DNA of 8,243 bases from a virus (lineage: Duplodnaviria; Heunggongvirae; Uroviricota; Caudoviricetes), in the IMG/VR virus record IMGVR_UViG_2778261464_000003, positions 1 through 8,243 of that record, one strand, 5' to 3'. This document shows positions 99 to 6,619 of this stretch, piece by piece (within the stretch, counting starts at the first letter, position 1; every line of letters begins with the position of its first letter). A program made the position numbers and the translations under genes. Below the pieces are notes generated by a model. That model worked only from the letters and a program-made list of their open reading frames with translations. It did not search any database and was not told where the DNA came from.

Positions 99-722
99 CT
101 ATGCGGACTCGGAAGGAAGTCCAATCATCTTATTCAAATCTTCTACCCGTAAAGCAGGAAGTGCTGTACTTGCTTTGTCTGCTTCTTTTGGTAGCAATTC
201 TTTGCTTTCAGGCCAAACTTCAATAAGTCGCTTAACTGTTGTGACTGAGTTCAAAGCAGCCCATACATTTGATTCGATATCCTTTTTCTTGGCTTCAAGT
301 TTTTGTTGCAATGCGCAGATTTCATCAAACCTTTTTGTTATTTCGTGTTCTGCATCAAACATGCATTTATCTTTGGTTGGAGTAGGGAGCAATATATCTT
401 CGCCGTTGCCGTCTTTCCCATATGAATGCCATCCAACCCTTCTGCCAGATACAGTCAGATAAATTGAAGTAGAACGAACATCGTATGAGTAAAATGAACA
501 TCCCATCTTTTCAAGTTCTTCACTTATAGCTACTAACCTGGATGATAACTGATCCACTTCCTCAGTTTTCTTTTTACCGCCAAACGCAATAACTCTGGCG
601 TCAAGTGCAAGCTGGTTCTTTAACTTTGTTACTTCTTCAAGTTCAGTGAAAACCCCAGACTTAATTAAAGCGTTACGAGCGATTTTCTCTTTCATTCTCG
701 TAGTTAAGCGGATTGATGACAT
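99..722 (-). CDS. Hypothetical early-left (pL operon) protein, 207 aa, charged with coiled-coil-like stretches, no transmembrane segment
   Basis: Long ORF on the same strand as N and immediately downstream of it. The track ORF runs 99-782, but the internal ATG at 722 (MSSIRLTTRMKEK...) is preceded by GAGAGG with 7-nt spacing, whereas the 782 start has no RBS. Stop TAG at 99-101. No family recognised by eye. Confidence 0.6.
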   Translation of the reverse strand: MSSIRLTTRMKEKIARNALIKSGVFTELEEVTKLKNQLALDARVIAFGGKKKTEEVDQLSSRLVAISEELEKMGCSFYSYDVRSTSIYLTVSGRRVGWHSYGKDGNGEDILLPTPTKDKCMFDAEHEITKRFDEICALQQKLEAKKKDIESNVWAALNSVTTVKRLIEVWPESKELLPKEADKASTALPALRVEDLNKMIGLPSESA

Positions 723-783
723 ATTAATTCCTCTCAAATAAGTGGTTTGCTGCCTAATTTTATTTTCTGGCGACCAACACAAG

Positions 784-1246: not shown

Positions 1247-1275
1247 ATAGTACGATATGTACTTTATTGGGTCAA
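1247..1275 (-). promoter_or_regulatory. pL-like early-left promoter: -35 TTGACC, 17-bp spacer, -10 TACTAT
   Basis: On the - strand, TTGACC (plus 1270-1275) and TACTAT (plus 1247-1252) are separated by exactly 17 bp. The site is upstream of nutL and N and overlaps the operator-like palindrome. Confidence 0.5.
1249..1263. promoter_or_regulatory. OL operator candidate: 15-bp palindrome AGTACGATATGTACT
   Basis: Near-perfect dyad with half-sites AGTAC(A/G)/TGTACT overlapping the pL -10 and spacer. Related copies occur in the cI-cro intergenic region (3516-3530, 3548-3562). A weaker related copy sits at about 1274-1288. Confidence 0.45.
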
Positions 1276-1464
1276 TACGATTTGTTCTAAAATAGGGTGA
1301 TTTTTTATAACACTTTGTATTTAATAGTGTTGTTTTTTAGCGTGGGTGTATCGCCTCGGCGATGTAAGGAGAGATCAGAATTGCGTGGTTTAGTGAGTTG
1401 TATCTATTTATTTTTCAATAAATACATTTGGTTATGTGTCTTTAGGTGGGGCGTGAGGCAAAGA

Positions 1465-1495
1465 AAACCCGGCGCGGTGGCCGGGTTTATTTATT
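1465..1495 (-). terminator. Intrinsic terminator (timm-like) ending the cI-cassette leftward operon; bidirectional in form
   Basis: 9-bp stem AAACCCGGC (1465-1473) / GCCGGGTTT (1480-1488) with loop GCGGTG. A T-run follows on both strands (minus RNA: hairpin then UUUUCUUUG; plus: UUUAUUUAUU). It directly abuts the stop codon (1491-1493) of the 216-aa gene. Confidence 0.6.
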
Positions 1496-2141
1496 GCTTA
1501 GGAGCTTGTTGTGATGACGATTGGTTAGTTGGAGCGCTCGTTAATGGTTGCTGTGTCGGTACCTGTATTATAATTGGAGCCGGGCTGGTTACTGATGGTG
1601 ACTTGTCATTGCCGGAGATAATCCAACTTGAGGCTAACATCACGCCAGACAGAATCACAGTAACTAAAGTCAAGCCAACGGCCATCGCCCACTGAGTCGT
1701 TGTAAGTCCCGTTTTCAAACCGCCGATTTCACCTTTAATTTCAGCAATACCTCTCTCAATAGAAGAAAATTGCTGAGTATAATAGGTTTTAAAGTCAGCT
1801 GATTCGCGACGCATTTCCGCAGCAATAGACTCTACCTCTGATTTGTTTTGTGAAAGCTTTGCGTCAAGTTCTTCTCTGGACATTCCGCTCACGCTTACCT
1901 CCAGGGTATCACTCTTCATCGCTACATCTTCCTTACTTGGGCGCAAACCCGTTTCGTCCATGGCGTATGAAACTCTATTTGATACCTTAGCATCAATACC
2001 AATACTTTGGTACTGAGATGGATCCCCATAAGGAGAAACGGTTGTCGCTGCTAGGGTTGCACTAACTATAATACTTGGAAGAACTGATGATGTTGTTCCT
2101 GAGGTAGGTTGAACTGAAGAAACTGGCTTCAGTCTTTCCAT
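1491..2141 (-). CDS. Cassette gene 3: 216-aa predicted membrane-anchored coiled-coil protein with a Ser/Thr/Pro/Gln-rich C-terminal tail
   Basis: ORF directly followed by the terminator. N-terminal hydrophobic segment (VLPSIIVSATLAATTV), a charged central region (EELDAKLSQNKSEVESIAAEMRRESADFK...), one clear transmembrane helix (WAMAVGLTLVTVILSGVMLASSWII), then a low-complexity tail. The start at 2141 overlaps the upstream gene stop by 13 nt; a weak AGGGA RBS lies about 9 nt upstream. No family recognised. Confidence 0.6.
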   Translation of the reverse strand: MERLKPVSSVQPTSGTTSSVLPSIIVSATLAATTVSPYGDPSQYQSIGIDAKVSNRVSYAMDETGLRPSKEDVAMKSDTLEVSVSGMSREELDAKLSQNKSEVESIAAEMRRESADFKTYYTQQFSSIERGIAEIKGEIGGLKTGLTTTQWAMAVGLTLVTVILSGVMLASSWIISGNDKSPSVTSPAPIIIQVPTQQPLTSAPTNQSSSQQAPKQ

Positions 2142-2395
2142 AGCCCATTATCCCTGAGAGCTACCTGTAATGATTTTACTAATGCAACAGCTTGATCCGG
2201 GCTCATTGAGACTGACATGTTAGGGGTCAACTCAACTTTTACTTGGAAGCTATTCTTTCCTTGCTCATCAGACTGCATGTGATGCTCAAATTCATGGCGG
2301 TAAAAAGTAATGATTGTTTCAGCACGATCAGGCGTAATAAGAACTGATGTGGCGGTCATGTGCTGAGGTATGATTTTAATAGTGTTATCTGACAT
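2129..2395 (-). CDS. Cassette gene 2: 88-aa hypothetical soluble protein (the track ORF extends to 2536)
   Basis: The ATG at 2395 (MSDNTIKIIPQ...) is preceded by AAAAAGGA with about 6-nt spacing. In-frame ATGs further upstream (2431, 2437, 2536) lack an RBS. Stop at 2129-2131 overlaps the start of gene 3. The start is uncertain; the protein could be up to 135 aa. Confidence 0.5.
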   Translation of the reverse strand: MSDNTIKIIPQHMTATSVLITPDRAETIITFYRHEFEHHMQSDEQGKNSFQVKVELTPNMSVSMSPDQAVALVKSLQVALRDNGLWKD

Positions 2396-2587
2396 AAGTA
2401 TCCTTTTTGTTTCCTTAGTATTTTTTTGCATTGACATCAGAAATAGCGAATCCACAAGAGTATGAGTAAAGCTAATCAGTTTAGTGATACGGTGACTATT
2501 AAAGTGGTAAACCACATCAAAGCTCGCAGAGTGCATACCAGGCTGTCACACATGACAAAGTAACGAGGATGCCTGATCTCATAGCGC

Positions 2588-2743
2588 TCAAAGAGACATG
2601 CCGATAATGGCATTAACCACGCATGACGCCATAAACACGCCGCCAACGATGAAGCTGGCTTGGTTCTTCCTGGTAGCGCCAAGAGTCAACAGAACCACTG
2701 AAAGGGCAAAAAAAGGTATCGCGATTATGCTGAACGTGTTCAT
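2588..2743 (-). CDS. Cassette gene 1: 51-aa small membrane protein with two predicted helices (not in the supplied ORF track)
   Basis: Manual translation of the - strand gives MNTFSIIAIPFFALSVVLLTLGATRKNQASFIVGGVFMASCVVNAIIGMSL. A GAGG RBS lies about 8 nt upstream of the ATG at 2743. Starts 78 nt downstream of the cI stop with no terminator between. Two hydrophobic stretches separated by RKNQ. Confidence 0.45.
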   Translation of the reverse strand: MNTFSIIAIPFFALSVVLLTLGATRKNQASFIVGGVFMASCVVNAIIGMSL

Positions 2744-2820
2744 GTTGACCTCAACTTATTTCGATTCTCCATCACCCTTAATCCGCCGCCCCATGTGTTT
2801 GTTGTGATCCGTTGCTGGCC

Positions 2821-3480
2821 TTAACCAAACGTCTCTTCAGGCCACTGGCTGGCGATAACTTTCCCCACAACGGAACAACTCTCATTGCATGGGATCATTG
2901 GGTACTGTGGGTTTAGTGGTTGTAAAAACACCTGACCGCTATCCCTGATCAGTTTCTTGAAGGTAAACTCATCACCCCCAAGTCTGGCTATGCAGAAATC
3001 ACCTGGCTCAACAGCCTGCTCAGGGTCAACCAGAATTAACATCCCGTCAGGAAAACTAGGTTTGGATCCTGTTGGCGCGGTCATGGAATTACCTTCAACC
3101 TCAAGCCAGAATGCAGAATCACTGGCTTTTTTGGTTGTGCTTACCCATCTCTCCGCATCACCTTTGGTAAAGGTTCTGAGTTCTGGAGAGAACATCCCAG
3201 CCTGAACATGAGAAAAAACAGGGTACTCATATTGTTTTTTAACTGGGGCCGATGAGTATTCGCCAACAGGTGAAAATGTCCCGTCGTGGTTGAATGATAT
3301 GTTATCAATACCAAGGTATTTAAACACCACACCAATATCACTAAGAGATGGATGACGAGATCCGCGCAACCAGTGTCCAATCCCACCCTGCGTCATACCT
3401 AGCTCTTCGGCTAACTTCTCTTGAGTTATGCCGAGCTCTTTCATTCTGGATCTAGCCAGTTCATACCATTTCATTTTCAT
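2821..3480 (-). CDS. cI: cI-type prophage repressor: HTH N-terminal domain plus LexA/S24-like autocleaving C-terminal domain (lambda-type), 219 aa
   Basis: The C-terminal ~130 aa ([30 protein letters not shown]...GNSMT...FKKLIRD...[12 protein letters not shown]) match lambda cI residues about 100-236 as I recall them, including the Ala-Gly cleavage site and Ser/Lys dyad context. The N-terminal ~80 aa are a different HTH domain ([22 protein letters not shown]). Start at 3480 (MKMKWYEL) has AAGGA upstream; the track start at 3522 is probably an upstream extension. Confidence 0.9.
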
Positions 3481-3515
3481 GTCCTTATTATTACGCTCTG
3501 TATTGCAACCATCCA

Positions 3516-3564
3516 TGCACAATGTGTATTTTTACTTGCATTCAAAAAGTACATATTGTATTTT
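3516..3564. promoter_or_regulatory. OR/pR region: two operator-like dyads (3516-3530, 3548-3562) overlapping a pR-like promoter (-35 TTTACT 3531-3536, -10 TATTGT 3554-3559)
   Basis: TGCACAATGTGTATT and AGTACATATTGTATT fit the same pattern as the OL palindrome. The rightward -35/-10 pair has 17-bp spacing and lies about 30 nt upstream of the cro start. pRM (leftward) must lie here too but could not be pinned down. Confidence 0.5.
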
Positions 3565-3590
3565 TTCTTCATGGTTACTATGGAGGGCAT

Positions 3591-3806
3591 ATGAGCAACC
3601 TACGAAAATATCGAGAGTCACTGAATATCTCTCAAACAACACTTGCTAAGGCAGTTGGATGCACACAGGGAGCTATCGGACATTGGGAATCTGGTCGTCG
3701 CTTCCCAGACCTTAAAACATGCCGTGCTCTTGTTGCGTGTCTAAACAAGTTAGGCGCAAAAGTCAGTCTTGATGACGTGTTCCCGCCGGAACACAAAGCC
3801 GCTTAA
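3591..3806 (+). CDS. cro: Cro-like HTH repressor, 71 aa
   Basis: Divergent from cI across the operator region. GGAGGG RBS at 3582-3587. The HTH segment (ISQTTLAKAVGCTQGAIGHWESGRRFP) has a recognition helix nearly identical to the cI N-terminal domain ([15 protein letters not shown]), as expected for proteins sharing operators. The track ORF from 3522 is an upstream extension. Confidence 0.8.
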   Translation: MSNLRKYRESLNISQTTLAKAVGCTQGAIGHWESGRRFPDLKTCRALVACLNKLGAKVSLDDVFPPEHKAA

Positions 3807-3816
3807 TAAGCGGATC

Positions 3817-3862
3817 CGCTCTTTGTAACAACGGACATTCGTCCTACGTCGCTGAAAAGCGA
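3817..3862 (+). promoter_or_regulatory. nutR-like site: boxA (3817-3832, CGCTCTTTGTAACAAC) and boxB hairpin (3849-3862, TCGCT-GAAA-AGCGA)
   Basis: Same boxA core (GCTCTTT..AACAACG), about 16-17 nt spacer and 5-bp stem/GAAA-loop boxB as the nutL candidate on the other strand. Located just downstream of the cro stop. Confidence 0.55.
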
Positions 3863-3937
3863 ATCCCAGAATATCTGACCAACTAAGGCCATATGCGTTT
3901 CCACGCATACCTTTCAACTAACTATTCACTATTGGAA

Positions 3938-3970
3938 ATCTTAAGAAATGGAAAGAACAAGTTACAGCAA
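3938..3970 (-). promoter_or_regulatory. pRE-like cII-activated promoter candidate (TTGC-N6-TTGT flanking the -35, -10 TAAGAT)
   Basis: The - strand reads TTGCTGTAACTTGT (plus 3957-3970, inside the first codons of cII), then a 17-nt spacer, then TAAGAT (plus 3938-3943). This mirrors the lambda pRE layout, where the cII box overlaps the cII start. The second repeat is TTGT, not TTGC. Confidence 0.35.
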
Positions 3971-4244
3971 ACTATCACAGCGTGACGTTGATCGCGCAGA
4001 AACAGATTTACTTATCAATCTGTCAGCTATTACCCAGCGCGGTCTGGCAAAGATGATTGGCTGTCATGAATCGAAGATAAGCAGAACGGACTGGAGATTT
4101 ATTGCTTCGGTCTTGTGTGCTTTCGGAATGGCATCAGACATCAGTCCGATTAGCAGGGCTTTTAAGTATGCGCTTGATGGACTCACAAAGAAAAAATCCC
4201 CGGCCGCCACCGAGGATTTTAAGCAAATTGATATGCAATTCTGA
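3948..4244 (+). CDS. cII: cII-like transcriptional activator, 98 aa
   Basis: HTH region (GLAKMIGCHESKISR) and a C-terminus (KKKSPAATEDFKQIDMQF) closely resembling lambda cII (KKRPAATERSEQIQMEF). Positioned after cro/nutR as in lambda. Confidence 0.85.
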   Translation: MERTSYSKLSQRDVDRAETDLLINLSAITQRGLAKMIGCHESKISRTDWRFIASVLCAFGMASDISPISRAFKYALDGLTKKKSPAATEDFKQIDMQF

Positions 4245-4266
4245 GGGAATTACTGGATCAATCCAC
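4188..4266 (-). ncRNA. oop: OOP-like antisense RNA candidate (~78 nt) overlapping the 3' end of cII
   Basis: On the - strand, an extended -10 promoter TGtCATAAT (plus 4274-4282) lies about 80 nt upstream of an intrinsic terminator inside the cII 3' end (minus RNA: AAAAUCCUCGG-UGGCGG-CCGGGGAUUUU then UUCUUUG; plus 4193-4220). The terminator stem resembles the lambda oop terminator as I recall it. No good -35 found. Ends are approximate. Confidence 0.45.
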
Positions 4267-4276
4267 AGGAGTAATT

Positions 4277-4438
4277 ATGACAAAACGTCGTAAGAAATAC
4301 CAGGAAAAAGAAGAGATTCGACACCCTGATTCACCTGAGGGATTAGTGGTAGCCGCAGCAAATAACAGGGCGTTCGCAGAGCGCCTTGTTGGTGTTTACA
4401 GACTAGCCAAAGCAGGAGTGAAACATGGGCGTCGTTAA
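4277..4438 (+). CDS. Small basic ORF, 53 aa ([53 protein letters not shown]), not in the ORF track
   Basis: Good RBS AGGAG at 4267-4271 with 5-nt spacing to the ATG at 4277. Stop TAA at 4436-4438 overlaps the O start (4425). Fills a 180-nt cII-O gap that is short and non-coding in lambda. Function unknown. Confidence 0.4.
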   Translation: MTKRRKKYQEKEEIRHPDSPEGLVVAAANNRAFAERLVGVYRLAKAGVKHGRR

Positions 4439-5246
4439 GTTAGCTGATTACAGGCCTCAACTTGAGGTCGTGGAGCATCGCGTGGCAGATACCGAAGATG
4501 GTTTCATGCGCGTTGCTAACGAGATTACCGACAGTCTGCTGATGGCTGATTTAACCGTCCGGCAGTTGAAGGTGATGCTCGCTATCATGCGCAAGACATA
4601 CGGATTCAATAAGCCGATGGATCGACTCACAAACACGCAGATAGCAGCCATGACAGGTATTCATCACACTCATGTTTGCGCTGCCAAGCGCCAGCTTATC
4701 GAGCGTAAATTCCTCATTGCTGATGGCGTGAAAATCGGAGTGAACAAGGTGGTTTCGCAGTGGATTAGCCAGGACAGCTTAACATTAGCTAAAACAGCTA
4801 ATAAAACATTAGCCAAGTCGGCTAATGGGTATAAGCCAAGTCAGCTAAACACAAAAGACAATATACAAAAGACAATAAATACAAATACCCCCTTACCCCC
4901 TAACGGGGGCGGCGATGGGCAGGTTAAACCTGAACGTCGCAAGGCAGAACGAATCGACTACGAATCCTTCCTGAACGCCTACAACACCGAAGTCGGTGAC
5001 AGACTGCCACACGCTGTTGCGGTCAACGAGAAACGCAAACGCCGCCTGAAGAAAATCATCCCGCAACTGAAAACGCCAAACGTGGACGGTTTCAGAGCGT
5101 ATGTCAGGGCGTTTGTGCATCAGGCCAAGCCGTTTTACTTCGGAGACAACGACACGGGCTGGACAGCTGATTTTGATTACCTGCTGAGGGAAGATTCGTT
5201 AACGGGAGTACGGGAAGGGAAGTTTGCAGACAGGGGGATTGCATGA
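4425..5246 (+). CDS. O: Replication initiator, lambda O / P22 gene 18 family, 273 aa
   Basis: The N-terminal domain ([15 protein letters not shown]...[38 protein letters not shown]) closely matches the lambda O N-terminal domain as recalled (NVADLDDGYARLSN...ADLTKRQFKVLLAILRKTYGWNKPMDRITDSQLSEIT). RBS AGGAGTG upstream; internal iterons and AT-rich region; stop overlaps the helicase start. Confidence 0.9.
4764..4890. repeat. Origin-like region inside O: four ~18-25-bp iterons (4764-4850) followed by an AT-rich stretch (4851-4890)
   Basis: Direct repeats with the core TTAGC(C/T)A..(G/A)(T/A)C.GCT(A/T)A: ATTAGCCAGGACAGCTTAAC, ATTAGCTAAAACAGCTAAT, ATTAGCCAAGTCGGCTAAT, AAGCCAAGTCAGCTAAAC, each internally dyad-symmetric. 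Then ACAAAAGACAATATACAAAAGACAATAAATACAAATA and a GC hairpin CCCCC-TAAC-GGGGG (4896-4909). Same layout as ori-lambda within the O linker. Confidence 0.6.
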
Positions 5247-6619
5247 GACAGGATATCGAAGCGAGCGTTATCGGTGGCCTGCTGATTGGTGGATTAACAC
5301 CAACCGCCAGCGACGTTCTGGCAACGCTGGAGCCGGAAGCGTTTTCAATTCCGCTCTACCGGAAAGCCTTCGAGGTTATCCGCAAGCAGGCGAGAAACAG
5401 AAACCTAATCGATGCGCTGATGGTTGCCGAGGCGTGCGGAGAGGAGCATTTCACGTCAATCCTGATGACCAGCAAAAACTGCCCGAGTGCCACAAACCTG
5501 AAGGGATATGCCGGAATGGTCGCGGATAACTATCACCGCCGTCTGGTGCTGGAAATCATGGATGAAATGCGTGAACCAATTCAGAGCGGAACCATCGACG
5601 CATCGAGTCAGGCGATGGATGAGCTTGTAAAGCGTCTTTCAGCCATCAGAAAGCCCCGTGACGAGGTTAAACCTGTACGGTTAGGGGAAATCATTACTGA
5701 CTACACTGACACGCTTGACAGGCGTCTGAGGAACGGAGAAGAGTCCGATACCCTGAAGACCGGAATCGAAGAACTTGATGCCATCACCGGAGGGATGAAC
5801 GCGGAAGACCTGGTGATAATCGCTGCTCGTCCTGGTATGGGGAAAACCGAACTGGCGCTGAAGATTGCCGAAGGCGTTGCAAGCCGCGTTATTCCTGGTT
5901 CTGACGTCCGGCGCGGGGTATTGATTTTCTCAATGGAAATGAGCGCATTGCAGATTGCAGAGCGAAGCATTGCCAACGCCGGGAGGATGTCGGTTAGTGT
6001 GCTGCGAAATCCTGCAGCGATGGATGACGAAGGCTGGGCGCGCGTTGCTAACGGCATGAGTCAGCTTGCAGATTTGGATGTATGGGTAGTCGATGCCTCG
6101 CGGTTATCGGTCGAAGAAATACGCTCAATCGCAGAACGGCACAAACAGGAAAATCCAAACCTCTCACTCATCATGGTGGATTATCTTGGCCTGATTGAGA
6201 AGCCGAAAGCAGACCGCAACGACCTCGCAATTGCTCACATCTCCGGAAGCCTGAAGGCGATGGCGAAAGACCTGAAAACGCCCGTTATCTCCCTGAGTCA
6301 GCTTTCGCGCGATGTTGAGAAGCGACCAAACAAACGCCCGACAAACGCAGATTTGCGTGATTCAGGAAGCATTGAACAGGACGCAGACTCAATCATCATG
6401 CTCTATCGGGAAGCGGTATATGACGAGAACAGTAGCGCCGCGCCATTTGCTGAAATCATCGTAACGAAAAACCGTTTTGGCTCGCTTGGTACGGTTTACC
6501 AGCGGTTCTGCAACGGACACTTTGTTGCATGTGACCAGGATGAAGCCAGACAGATTTGCACAACATCAAATGCACCTGCTGCACGTGGCAGACGATATGC
6601 ACAAGGGGCTGACGTATGA
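5243..6619 (+). CDS. DnaB-family replicative helicase (P22 gene 12 type), 458 aa
   Basis: Walker [10 protein letters not shown], DnaB-like motifs [45 protein letters not shown] overlap with the O stop. The length equals what I recall for P22 gp12. Confidence 0.9.

What the first reader, a model, noticed from the sequence alone, without database searches (positions are those of the whole stretch)
1491..2141. 216-aa protein with hydrophobic N-terminus, coiled-coil core, one transmembrane helix and an S/T/P/Q-rich tail
The architecture suggests a bitopic or signal-anchored envelope protein: an N-terminal hydrophobic segment (residues about 20-36), a roughly 110-aa charged helical region, a transmembrane helix (about 148-172) and a low-complexity tail (SPSVTSPAPIIIQVPTQQPLTSAPTNQSSSQQAPKQ). 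Its start overlaps the stop of the upstream 88-aa gene by 13 nt, suggesting translational coupling and possibly a stoichiometric complex. This is unlike the four-helix RexB.
Basis: seen in the sequence. Interest (0 to 1): 0.6.

Follow-up and report, generated by a model that had tools for sequence, protein, structure and literature searches.

The report
Repressor-linked tail-anchored membrane protein, two isoforms
The ORF is phage HK97 gene 48, an uncharacterised inner-membrane protein held by one C-terminal helix; with the small gene 49 it sits where phage lambda keeps its rexAB exclusion genes, probably comes in a long and a short form, and probably (inferred only) protects lysogens against other phages.

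Summary
The ORF is real. It is nucleotide-identical to HK97 gene 48, and the overlapping 88-aa gene is HK97 gene 49. Neither has a known function.

Confirmed: the 13-nt overlap, one strong TM helix (residues ~148-175) and the S/T/P/Q tail, which carries a conserved PIIIQVP motif.

Not confirmed: the "hydrophobic N-terminus" is sub-threshold, predicted unstructured and absent from homologues. The helical region is about 50 aa, not 110.

The family (phrog_5820; at least 203 clusters at 50% identity) is single-pass and anchored by its C-terminus with the N-terminus in the cytoplasm. It is not bitopic.

New findings:
1. The pair sits immediately downstream of the prophage repressor in about 25 distinct contexts. 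In HK244/HK542 it replaces rexAB behind lambda's own cI.
2. The partner gene and the hypervariable N-terminus travel together, while the conserved helix-TM cores are shuffled among them.
3. A conserved internal Shine-Dalgarno site plus start lies exactly at the core boundary (GGAGG-5 nt-GTG84/ATG87 here). A Met is there in 123 of 141 members (p ~ 2e-91). This predicts nested long and short isoforms.

Best reading (inferred, ~0.45): a Rex-like exclusion module expressed in lysogens, with a swappable cytoplasmic sensor and a membrane effector. No experiment or homology supports a defence function so far.

The parts
1491..2141 (-). Long form of gene 48 (216 aa + stop); HK97 gp48, phrog_5820
   Evidence: ORF list. 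DNA identical to HK97 gene 48. phrog_5820 E=9.6e-69. RefSeq WP_015980176.1 'hypothetical protein'.
1884..2141 (-).
   Evidence: Not alignable among homologues. pLDDT 41-59 and no secondary structure. KD19 max 1.42. Stop-free beyond chance. Its type co-segregates with partner type.
1898..1902 (-). Internal Shine-Dalgarno GGAGG, 5 nt upstream of GTG codon 84
   Evidence: Read directly from the sequence. Anti-SD duplex dG -10.6 kcal/mol against a regional mean of -1.6.
1491..1892 (-). Predicted short isoform (133 aa from GTG84 at 1892-1890, or 130 aa from ATG87 at 1883-1881): conserved helix + TM + tail
   Evidence: Met within 9 residues before the core in 123/141 family members against 12% expected, p ~ 2e-91. 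In-frame ATG/GTG with SD in 14/14 independent N-types, mean dG -7.0 against -1.7 background. Gene callers started 11 representatives there.
1731..1877 (-). Conserved long helix, residues 89-137 (REELDAKLxxNK.EV...EMRRE...), heptad pattern leading into the membrane
   Evidence: AF2 helix with pLDDT 90-95. Invariant or near-invariant residues E91 A94 N99 K100 E102 A107 M110 E113. a/d spacing read from the sequence.
1617..1712 (-). Single transmembrane helix, residues ~144-175 (hydrophobic core 152-170)
   Evidence: KD19 2.25. AF2 helix pLDDT ~85. 135/154 family members have one C-terminal TM.
1494..1616 (-). S/T/P/Q-rich tail, residues 176-216, predicted periplasmic; conserved PIIIQVP motif at residues 189-195 (window 1557-1577)
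   Evidence: Composition. P189 I192 Q193 P195 Q197 near-invariant among close homologues. The motif P[ITV][IV][IV][QYN]x[PQ] occurs in 53/135 members.
2129..2395 (-). Partner gene 49 (88 aa, soluble; phrog_26809); its stop overlaps the gene 48 start by 13 nt
   Evidence: HK97 Gp49. SD AAGGA 6 nt before the ATG. phrog_26809 E=1e-69. Weak but co-linear similarity to the partners of distant loci.
1465..1488 (.). Hairpin + T-run terminator ending the module (equivalent of lambda Timm); homology with HK225-type phages stops here
   Evidence: Scan. Sequence AAACCCGGCCACCGCGCCGGGTTTTCTTT. Boundary alignment. The same element is annotated Timm in HK244.
2588..2743 (-). 51-aa ORF with two hydrophobic helices, with SD (GAGG), inside the same mobile module; not conserved in distant loci
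   Evidence: Annotated in some RefSeq genomes as WP_001091427.1. Identical in all 24 loci that hold the region.
2821..3522 (-). CI-type repressor (HTH_3 + Peptidase_S24) directly upstream on the same strand; presumed source of the lysogenic transcript
   Evidence: Pfam E=7e-29 and 2e-10. The C-terminal domain is shared with HK97/lambda-type cI and the N-terminal domain differs.
1247..1275 (-). pL-like promoter (TTGACC-17-TACTAT) downstream of the terminator, ahead of the N gene (784-1140)
   Evidence: N peptide Pfam E=2.6e-32.

Best explanation
Genes 49 and 48 form a two-gene accessory module. It lies between the prophage repressor gene and the Timm-type terminator, in the position of lambda rexA-rexB. 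It is therefore presumably co-transcribed with cI in lysogens.

gp48 is a single-pass inner-membrane protein anchored by its C-terminus. The N-terminal ~145 residues are cytoplasmic and the 40-residue P/Q-rich tail is periplasmic.

The gene probably yields two nested products. The 216-aa long form starts in translational coupling with gp49 and carries a hypervariable, intrinsically unstructured N-terminal region. The 130/133-aa short form starts at a strong internal SD and consists only of the conserved helix, TM and tail.

Proposed mechanism (inferred): gp49 binds the variable N-terminal region, and together they form a swappable cytoplasmic specificity or sensor unit. Long and short forms co-assemble through the heptad helix and the TM segment. 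When a superinfecting phage perturbs the sensor unit, the assembly switches to a state that compromises the inner membrane (Rex-like abortive infection) or otherwise excludes the invader.

Shown here: gene anatomy, single C-terminal TM, conserved synteny, modular shuffling, conserved internal SD plus start. Inferred: expression from pRM, existence of both isoforms as proteins, gp49/N-terminus binding, anti-phage function and membrane-damage output.
For: Position: cI -> (51-aa ORF) -> gene 49 -> gene 48 -> terminator -> pL -> N. No promoter-like site on the minus strand inside the module. In HK244/HK542 a family pair sits between lambda-type cI/pRM and the annotated Timm, where lambda has rexAB.

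Synteny of repressor -> small partner -> family member holds in Yersinia, Kosakonia, Sodalis, Buttiauxella, Enterobacter and unnamed remote members, behind S24-type, short-HTH and Arc-type repressors. The repressor-to-N interval is a recognised site of accessory/defence loci such as rexAB and bstA (PMC7067206).

The module is mobile: it is bounded at 1457 and 2845 against HK225, is linked to at least 3 cI alleles and occurs in 52 of 5,426 complete E. coli genomes.

Topology.

Modularity: 12 partner clusters and 14 N-terminus clusters are tightly coupled, while 9 core clusters are shuffled among them (C1 with P1/P2/P4/P5/P6; C2 with P2/P3/P7; C4 with P1/P7).

Dual start. The long frame is open back to the partner stop in 14/14 N-types, summed log10 P about -27.
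Against: There is no experimental or homology evidence for any anti-phage activity. No PADLOC, Pfam, NCBIfam or PDB match exists for either protein or for the other partner types, and no paper was found on gp48/gp49.

Co-segregation of partner and N-terminus could arise simply because they are adjacent and recombination occurs in the conserved 'SREELDAKL' DNA, without any physical interaction.

The internal Met could be a structural residue, although its variable spacing and the preceding SD argue otherwise.

A single TM helix is a weak basis for predicting pore formation. The conserved periplasmic PIIIQVP motif is not needed by a simple depolarisation model, and it is absent from a subfamily with 1-8-residue tails.

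Expression from pRM is inferred; the 190-nt gap before gene 49 could hide a promoter.
Confidence: 0.45

Rival explanations
1. Superinfection-exclusion protein that blocks DNA entry. The membrane-anchored protein uses its periplasmic tail (PIIIQVP strand motif) to interfere with the incoming tail or tape-measure channel, or with a host periplasmic or inner-membrane factor, as HK97 gp15, P22 SieA or T4 Imm do. No cell death is involved.
For: Inner-membrane location with an exposed tail that is conserved among many members. Lysogen-expressed position. HK97 is already known to encode one such membrane exclusion protein, gp15 (PMC3594210).
Against: The most conserved and largest part is cytoplasmic (helix 89-137). 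A subfamily has essentially no tail (1-8 residues) and only 53/135 members carry the motif. An injection block needs neither a hypervariable cytoplasmic N-terminus, nor a co-varying soluble partner, nor a nested short isoform.
Confidence: 0.2
2. Not a defence module: a lysogeny-associated regulator or host-physiology moron. For example it could modulate the lysis-lysogeny transition (as recently proposed for RexA/RexB) or membrane and stress physiology, like tail-anchored coiled-coil proteins of the host.
For: Same operon position as cI. RexAB itself has a reported role in the lysogenic-to-lytic transition (bioRxiv 10.1101/2021.04.19.439022, listed). Weak sub-threshold similarity to coiled-coil stress proteins (sll1863_fam E=0.003). 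CCDC90-like hits in 17/50 members.
Against: Extreme diversification and cassette-like swapping of the partner and N-terminus (12-14 unrelated types on homologous cores) is typical of arms-race specificity determinants rather than housekeeping regulators. The module moves independently of the cI allele.
Confidence: 0.15
3. Only the short protein is real. Translation starts at GTG84/ATG87, and the upstream 83-86 codons, including the 'hydrophobic N-terminus', are untranslated spacer.
For: Strong internal SD (dG -10.6) against a modest SD at ATG1 (dG -4.9). A conserved Met at the boundary. PGAP and other callers start 11 representatives there. The N-terminus is unconserved and unstructured.
Against: The frame is open from the internal start back to the partner's stop in all 14 unrelated N-types, while the other frames carry 1-17 stops (summed log10 P about -27). 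The long start overlaps or abuts the partner stop (ATGA, 11-14-nt overlaps) in 89 of 91 loci.
Confidence: 0.1
4. One reading: a bitopic or signal-anchored envelope protein in which residues 20-36 form a first TM helix or signal anchor, the coiled coil lies in the periplasm and the tail lies in the cytoplasm.
For: A moderately hydrophobic S/T/A/V/I-rich stretch exists at residues 17-37 (KD19 up to 1.42).
Against: The stretch is below the TM threshold, has pLDDT below 50 and no helix. It is absent from every other N-terminus type. Only 3/135 members have a second TM-like segment. The short isoform would lack it.
Confidence: 0.05

Closest known systems
Lambda RexA/RexB exclusion system
   Same: Identical genomic slot: downstream of cI on the same strand, ended by Timm, before pL. 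In HK244/HK542 the pair literally replaces rexAB behind lambda-type cI. Two genes, a soluble protein followed by a membrane protein. There is a possible means of varying effector stoichiometry: lambda makes extra RexB from pLIT (my knowledge), and here there is an internal start.
   Different: No sequence similarity. The membrane component has 1 TM helix plus a long cytoplasmic helix rather than 4 TM helices. The soluble partner is 84-165 aa and of several unrelated types, rather than the 279-aa RexA. No function has been demonstrated.
P22/lambda SieB with its in-frame internal product Esc; lambda S107/S105 holin-antiholin (from my knowledge of these systems, not tested here)
   Same: One membrane-protein gene with two in-frame starts giving a longer and a shorter product that could antagonise or tune each other. 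SieB is an abortive-infection function expressed in lysogens.
   Different: No homology (no SieB or holin Pfam/PHROG hit). The two starts here are 83-86 codons apart, against 2 codons in S. The module is not in a lysis cassette. The isoforms are predicted, not observed.
Tail-anchored coiled-coil membrane proteins (Pfam CCDC90-like/DUF1640; E. coli ElaB/YqjD-type proteins)
   Same: Architecture: a cytoplasmic helical/coiled-coil region followed by one C-terminal TM helix. 17/50 family members give sub-threshold to moderate CCDC90-like hits (best E=2e-8).
   Different: The window protein scores 12.6 bits against a 33.5-bit cut-off. The family has its own signature (SREELDAKLxxNKAEV, GLKTSLTTTQW, PIIIQVP), a phage repressor-linked context and a partner gene.
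HK97 gp15 / P22 SieA / T4 Imm membrane superinfection-exclusion proteins
   Same: Small prophage-expressed inner-membrane proteins that protect lysogens (PMC3594210; PMC10883804 listed).
   Different: Unrelated sequences and different loci. Those act alone, without a variable cytoplasmic module or a partner gene.

Membership tests
phrog_5820 (phage protein family of unknown function; HK97 gp48-like) | Significant full-length match to the family profile | tested here: met
   E=9.6e-69, residues 20-210 on profile positions 2-198 of 200. Distant members P0025, P0055, P0036 and P0080 also match.
Lambda RexB | Sequence homology to RexB, with RexA as partner | tested here: not met
   No Pfam, PHROG, NCBIfam or PADLOC match to Rex families for either gene.
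Lambda RexB | Polytopic (four-helix) inner-membrane protein | tested here: not met
   One TM helix only.
Lambda RexB | Located between cI and Timm/pL, co-directional with cI | tested here: met
   Direct replacement of rexAB in HK244/HK542.
Lambda RexB | Excludes superinfecting phage (e.g. T4 rII) by membrane depolarisation | not testable with these tools
   Needs plating and membrane-potential assays.
Pfam CCDC90-like (PF07798, DUF1640) | Score above the gathering threshold (33.5 bits) | tested here: not met
   12.6 bits, E=0.12 for the window protein. 17/50 relatives hit at E<=0.01, so a distant relationship or shared composition remains possible.
   KD19 max 1.42, no helix, pLDDT below 50, not conserved.
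C-terminally (tail-)anchored single-pass membrane protein | Single TM helix near the C-terminus, no signal peptide, short low-charge tail | tested here: met
   TM at 152-170 of 216. 135/154 relatives are the same, with median tail 35 aa and a subfamily at 1-8 aa. K+R is 1.85 on the N-flank and 1.13 on the C-flank. Orientation itself is inferred, not measured.
Dual-start membrane proteins (holin/antiholin, SieB/Esc type) | Two in-frame translation starts, each with a ribosome-binding site | tested here: inconclusive
   Sequence evidence is strong, but the protein products were not observed.
Dual-start membrane proteins (holin/antiholin, SieB/Esc type) | Homology to a holin or SieB family, or location in a lysis cassette | tested here: not met
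   No such Pfam or PHROG hits. The gene lies in the immunity region.
Known anti-phage defence systems (PADLOC-DB v2) | Match to any component model | tested here: not met
   No hit for gp48. The only hit for gp49 is E=0.0095 to candidate PDC-S52 on the untranslated-extension version. No hits for the other partner or core types.

The most novel reading that the evidence does not exclude
phrog_5820 plus its interchangeable partners is a widespread, previously unrecognised class of prophage defence that substitutes for RexAB. In this reading a tail-anchored coiled-coil effector is made as nested long (sensor-bearing, partner-bound) and short (effector-only) isoforms. Their ratio or interaction forms an effector/anti-effector switch. 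Specificity is re-programmed by swapping the 'partner + N-terminal peptide' cassette at a conserved recombination joint (the SREELDAKL coding sequence).
Probability: 0.3. Interest if true: 0.8.

Novelty: new variant of a known kind. Interest (0 to 1): 0.62.

Why it matters
HK97 is a model phage, yet the two genes in its rex position have had no description beyond 'Gp48/Gp49' since 2000. This analysis turns a vague hypothetical ORF into a defined, testable module. It gives a precise topology and a predicted pair of nested isoforms with exact start sites that can be mutated. It also gives a natural set of at least 12 partner/N-terminus cassettes on interchangeable cores, which is a ready-made specificity-swap experiment.

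If the module does exclude phages, it would be a second, non-homologous answer to the long-standing question of how Rex-type systems couple a cytoplasmic sensor to a membrane effector. It would also add a defence family that current predictors (PADLOC) miss, and it is present in about 1% of complete E. coli genomes and across Enterobacterales prophages.

Tried and rejected
- Pfam, NCBIfam and PADLOC on gp48, gp49 and the 51-aa ORF gave nothing significant. The weak Hsp20, GrpE and sll1863 hits were dismissed as coiled-coil or composition noise.
- A PDB profile search returned only coiled-coil noise, best a short tail fibre at E=0.0024. Foldseek against BFVD and PDB gave no match. The third fold-search slot was not used, because the model is just helix-hinge-helix.
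- The first AF2 run on the 11-sequence alignment was too weak (pLDDT 47.5) and was superseded by the 50-sequence run.
- The word-index homologue search made the family look tiny, at 11 clusters. That was rejected after the exhaustive profile search found 203.
- The search for related loci failed with the 50-sequence alignment, and the genome-contig scan gave only 3 loci.
- My first regex for the core failed and was replaced by an HMM.
- The heptad-moment test on the HK97 helix was not significant (p ~ 0.10). I therefore call the region 'a long helix with a heptad pattern' rather than a proven coiled coil.
- gp49 homology to the partners of distant loci is only suggestive (hhalign probability 54%, E=1.3e-4).
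- Five literature searches found no functional study. The gp15 paper PMC3430355 is not held.
- I considered that the PIIIQVP strand might mimic a TonB-box-like strand-addition motif. This rests on memory only and was not testable, so it was not adopted.
- I considered holin or spanin roles and rejected them, because the genes are in the immunity region on the cI strand and not in a lysis cassette.
Full report
WHAT THE WINDOW IS. The 8.2-kb window is the immunity/replication region of an HK97-like lambdoid phage or prophage. On the minus strand it carries Nmad5 protein, N, pL, then [terminator, 216-aa ORF, 88-aa ORF, 51-aa ORF], then cI. On the plus strand it carries cro, cII, O, a DnaB-type helicase, NinB and a methyltransferase. 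Bases 1333-3231 and 3816-6275 are 97-98% identical to HK97. The finding's ORF is nucleotide-identical to HK97 gene 48, and the upstream gene is HK97 gene 49 with one substitution, K47N. Both are 'Gp48/Gp49' or 'hypothetical protein' in every record examined. Five literature searches found no functional work on them.

CHECK OF THE OBSERVATION. The ORF, the 13-nt ATG/TGA overlap, the TM helix and the S/T/P/Q tail are all there. The TM segment has a Kyte-Doolittle 19-residue maximum of 2.25 at residues 152-170. AlphaFold2, given a 50-sequence alignment, models a helix at 144-175 with pLDDT about 85.

Two parts of the description do not hold. The 'hydrophobic N-terminus' peaks at KD19 = 1.42, which is sub-threshold. 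It is unstructured in both models and lies in a region (residues 1-86) that no homologue shares. The 'roughly 110-aa helical core' is a single helix of about 50 residues (89-137, pLDDT 90-95); residues 38-88 are neither helical nor conserved. A heptad a/d pattern runs into the membrane (F125 I128 I132 I135 I139 L142 L146). It continues upstream with a register shift, but a single-register moment test on this member alone was not significant (p about 0.10). Longer relatives have a textbook 3-4 spacing in Gly-containing heptads (IDGKxDSVDGxVKAINGKFEGIQGQIxGINTAIxGIQSG).

THE FAMILY. The word-index search suggested a tiny family of 11 clusters. An exhaustive HMMER profile search found 203 clusters at 50% identity (105 with E <= 1e-10), nearly all 110-270 aa. 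Named members come from Escherichia, Citrobacter, Yersinia, Xenorhabdus, Kosakonia, Morganella, Enterobacter, Sodalis and Buttiauxella.

All share the same plan:
- a hypervariable N-terminal region of 30-130 aa;
- a conserved helix ('ISREELDAKLxxNKAEVxAIAxEMRREMAEWRE');
- a variable number of heptads;
- 'GLKTSLTTTQW' followed by one TM helix;
- usually a P/Q-rich tail carrying P-[ITV]-[IV]-[IV]-[QYN]-x-[PQ].

Of 154 members, 135 have one strong C-terminal TM and only 3 have any second TM-like stretch. The median is 143 residues before the TM and 35 after, and a subfamily has tails of 1-8 residues. K+R is 1.85 on the N-side flank and 1.13 on the C-side. With no signal peptide, this is a C-terminally anchored, N-in/C-out topology.

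No curated family, defence model, solved structure or viral fold matches. Relatives give only coiled-coil-type Pfam hits: Baculo_PEP_C, NPV_P10, and CCDC90-like/DUF1640 in 17 of 50. All core variants map to phrog_5820, 'unknown function'.

CONTEXT. In every informative locus the family member lies just downstream of a phage repressor on the same strand, preceded by a small ORF. This holds for Yersinia intermedia, Kosakonia, three Y. enterocolitica prophages with three different cI alleles, Y. aleksiciae, Sodalis, Buttiauxella, Enterobacter and metagenomic relatives, behind S24-type, short-HTH or Arc-type repressors. One Xenorhabdus copy instead sits beside an Arc/Ant immI-like region.

Most tellingly, the wild lambda-immunity phages HK244 and HK542 carry a 144-aa ORF plus a 206-aa family member between lambda-type cI/pRM and the annotated Timm terminator, exactly where lambda has rexA-rexB.

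In the window the module is bounded by a hairpin/T-run terminator (1465-1488) followed by pL (1275-1247). Homology with HK225, which has a different cI, runs only from 1457 to 2845, so the cassette is a mobile unit. It occurs at 99% identity or better in 52 of 5,426 complete E. coli genomes. The repressor-to-N interval is a recognised mosaic site for accessory loci such as rexAB and bstA (PMC7067206).

MODULARITY. From 91 loci I extracted the family ORF with an HMM, split it at the core boundary and took the ORF immediately upstream as the partner. In 89 loci a same-strand partner stops within -56 to +18 nt of the long-form start, most often with overlaps of 4, 11, 13 or 14 nt.

Independent clustering gave 12 partner types, 14 N-terminus types and 9 core types at 60% identity or more. 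Partner and N-terminus types are tightly coupled (P1-N1, P3-N2 [HK97], P5-N3, P6-N5, P7-N6, P4-N7/N9). Cores are shuffled across them: C1 with P1, P2, P4, P5 and P6; C2 with P2, P3 and P7; C4 with P1 and P7.

Partner types fall into these groups:
- gp49-like small proteins with an I-[TSHN]-F strand and a C-terminal helix (weak mutual similarity; hhalign probability 54%, E=1.3e-4);
- Cys-rich zinc-ribbon-like proteins (phrog_4293);
- beta-rich proteins of ~145-165 aa (phrog_5893);
- singletons.
None has a known function.

The natural reading is that 'partner + N-terminal peptide' is one functional cassette, with the partner probably binding the otherwise disordered N-terminus, and that it is exchanged against a common membrane module. 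The caveat is that adjacency, plus recombination within the conserved SREELDAKL coding DNA, would give the same pattern without any physical interaction.

A NESTED SECOND START. The window has GGAGG (1902-1898), then 5 nt, then GTG at codon 84 (1892-1890), and ATG at codon 87 (1883-1881). These sit exactly at the start of the conserved core.

This is a family property. Of 141 members with an N-terminal extension, 123 have a Met within the 9 residues before the core, against 12% expected from Met usage in the rest of those regions (binomial p ~ 2e-91). Several exceptions have Val there, and gene callers started 11 representatives at that point.

At the DNA level, all 14 independent N-types have an in-frame ATG or GTG there. 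Mean anti-SD pairing is -7.0 kcal/mol, against a regional background of -1.7. Nine of 14 fall at or below their own 10th percentile (1.4 expected). Examples are AGGAGG, AAGGAGGAG, CAGGAGG and AGAGGAGGAAG. The long-form starts average only -3.1.

Yet the long frame is open all the way back to the partner's stop in all 14 types, while the other frames carry 1-17 stops (summed log10 P about -27; HK97 alone 0.46%).

Both starts therefore appear to be selected. The long form is translationally coupled to the partner. The short form (133 or 130 aa here) consists only of helix, TM and tail. The isoforms are predicted from sequence, not observed.

HOW IT MOST LIKELY WORKS. Shown: the anatomy, the single C-terminal TM, the repressor-linked synteny, the cassette shuffling and the conserved internal SD plus start.

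Inferred: transcription with cI from pRM. No promoter-like site was found on the minus strand inside the module, but the 190-nt gap before gene 49 could hide one. Also inferred are N-in/C-out insertion, gp49 binding to residues 1-86, and co-assembly of long and short forms through the heptad helix and the Ser/Thr/Gly-containing TM.

My best estimate (0.45) is a Rex-like exclusion module expressed in lysogens. In it, the variable cytoplasmic unit detects or is targeted by a superinfecting phage, and the membrane module delivers the output, most simply loss of membrane integrity or potential. The short/long ratio would act as an internal brake. From my own knowledge, this compares with S105/S107, SieB/Esc, or extra RexB made from pLIT.

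Rivals:
- a DNA-entry block acting through the periplasmic tail (0.2). The conserved PIIIQVP motif favours it; the cytoplasmic bulk, the tail-less subfamily and the sensor-like variability count against it;
- a non-defence regulatory or physiological role (0.15);
- short form only (0.1);

COMPARISON AND NOVELTY. The module works in the place of RexAB and may work like it, but it is not a member. There is no homology, it has one TM rather than four, and the partners differ. It is a member of phrog_5820 and of the general class of tail-anchored helical membrane proteins. It does not reach the CCDC90-like threshold.

The genes are long deposited but uncharacterised. What is new here is the definition of a repressor-linked two-gene module with swappable sensor cassettes and a conserved nested start. 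I rate it a new variant of a known kind (prophage exclusion modules at the rex position), with interest 0.62. Nothing about function is demonstrated. The predictions are nonetheless specific and cheap to test in a model phage.

Noticed in passing
window 2588-2743 (-): A 51-aa ORF (MNTFSIIAIPFFALSVVLLTLGATRKNQASFIVGGVFMASCVVNAIIGMSL) with two hydrophobic helices and a GAGG SD 5 nt before the ATG. It lies between cI and gene 49, inside the mobile cassette. It is not annotated in HK97 or HK225, is annotated in some RefSeq genomes (WP_001091427.1), is identical in all 24 loci that carry the region, and is absent from distant loci. It may be a third small membrane component or just a spurious ORF.
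   Followed up: partly
window 2821-3522 (-), junction near 3231: The cI gene is a domain mosaic. Its C-terminal S24/oligomerisation domain (from ...[14 protein letters not shown] onward) is essentially identical to the HK97/lambda-type cI, but its N-terminal HTH domain, the operator region and cro (3232-3815) are unrelated. Recombination has occurred at the repressor's inter-domain linker, creating a new immunity specificity.
   Followed up: partly
window 99-782 (-): The gene after N encodes an Nmad5 (nucleotide-modification-associated domain 5, PF18757, E=5e-72; phrog_1965) protein. HK97 has the unrelated Gp45 in this position.
   Followed up: no
window 1440-1488: The terminator hairpin after gene 48 (CCCGGC..GCCGGG + T-run) recurs on its own at 91-100% identity in about 50 other E. 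coli genomes, next to unrelated genes (HicA toxin, a P63C-domain protein). It also recurs after the HK542/HK244 pair and in mEp234/HK106. It looks like a shared Timm-type module boundary and possible recombination joint.
   Followed up: partly
L016/L017 (HK542, HK244) 1896-2947: Wild lambda-immunity phages HK244 and HK542 lack rexAB. Instead they carry a 144-aa beta-rich ORF (phrog_5893) overlapping (ATGA) a 206-aa phrog_5820 member. This is by far the most common variant among IMG/VR viral contigs.
   Followed up: yes
L008 (Xenorhabdus sp. KK7.4) 3610-4501; L058: Two atypical contexts. In Xenorhabdus the pair (Cys-rich partner + family member) lies next to an Arc/Ant immI-like region and a RelB/ParE pair, near tail genes, rather than behind cI. 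In L058 the family member has no N-terminal extension and follows, after a 90-nt gap, a 281-aa ORF6N-domain (antirepressor-like) protein.
   Followed up: no
L003 (Yersinia intermedia) 3746-4691: Between cI and the pair there are two paralogous 132/135-aa ORFs, each with an N-terminal TM helix and no known domain. This is another uncharacterised insert in the same hotspot.
   Followed up: no
window 2129-2536 (-): The gene 49 frame is open for 135 codons. PHROG 26809 and HK225 use a 100-102-aa version, while HK97 and PGAP use 88 aa. Only the 88-aa start (ATG 2395) has a plausible SD (AAGGA, 6-nt spacing).
   Followed up: partly
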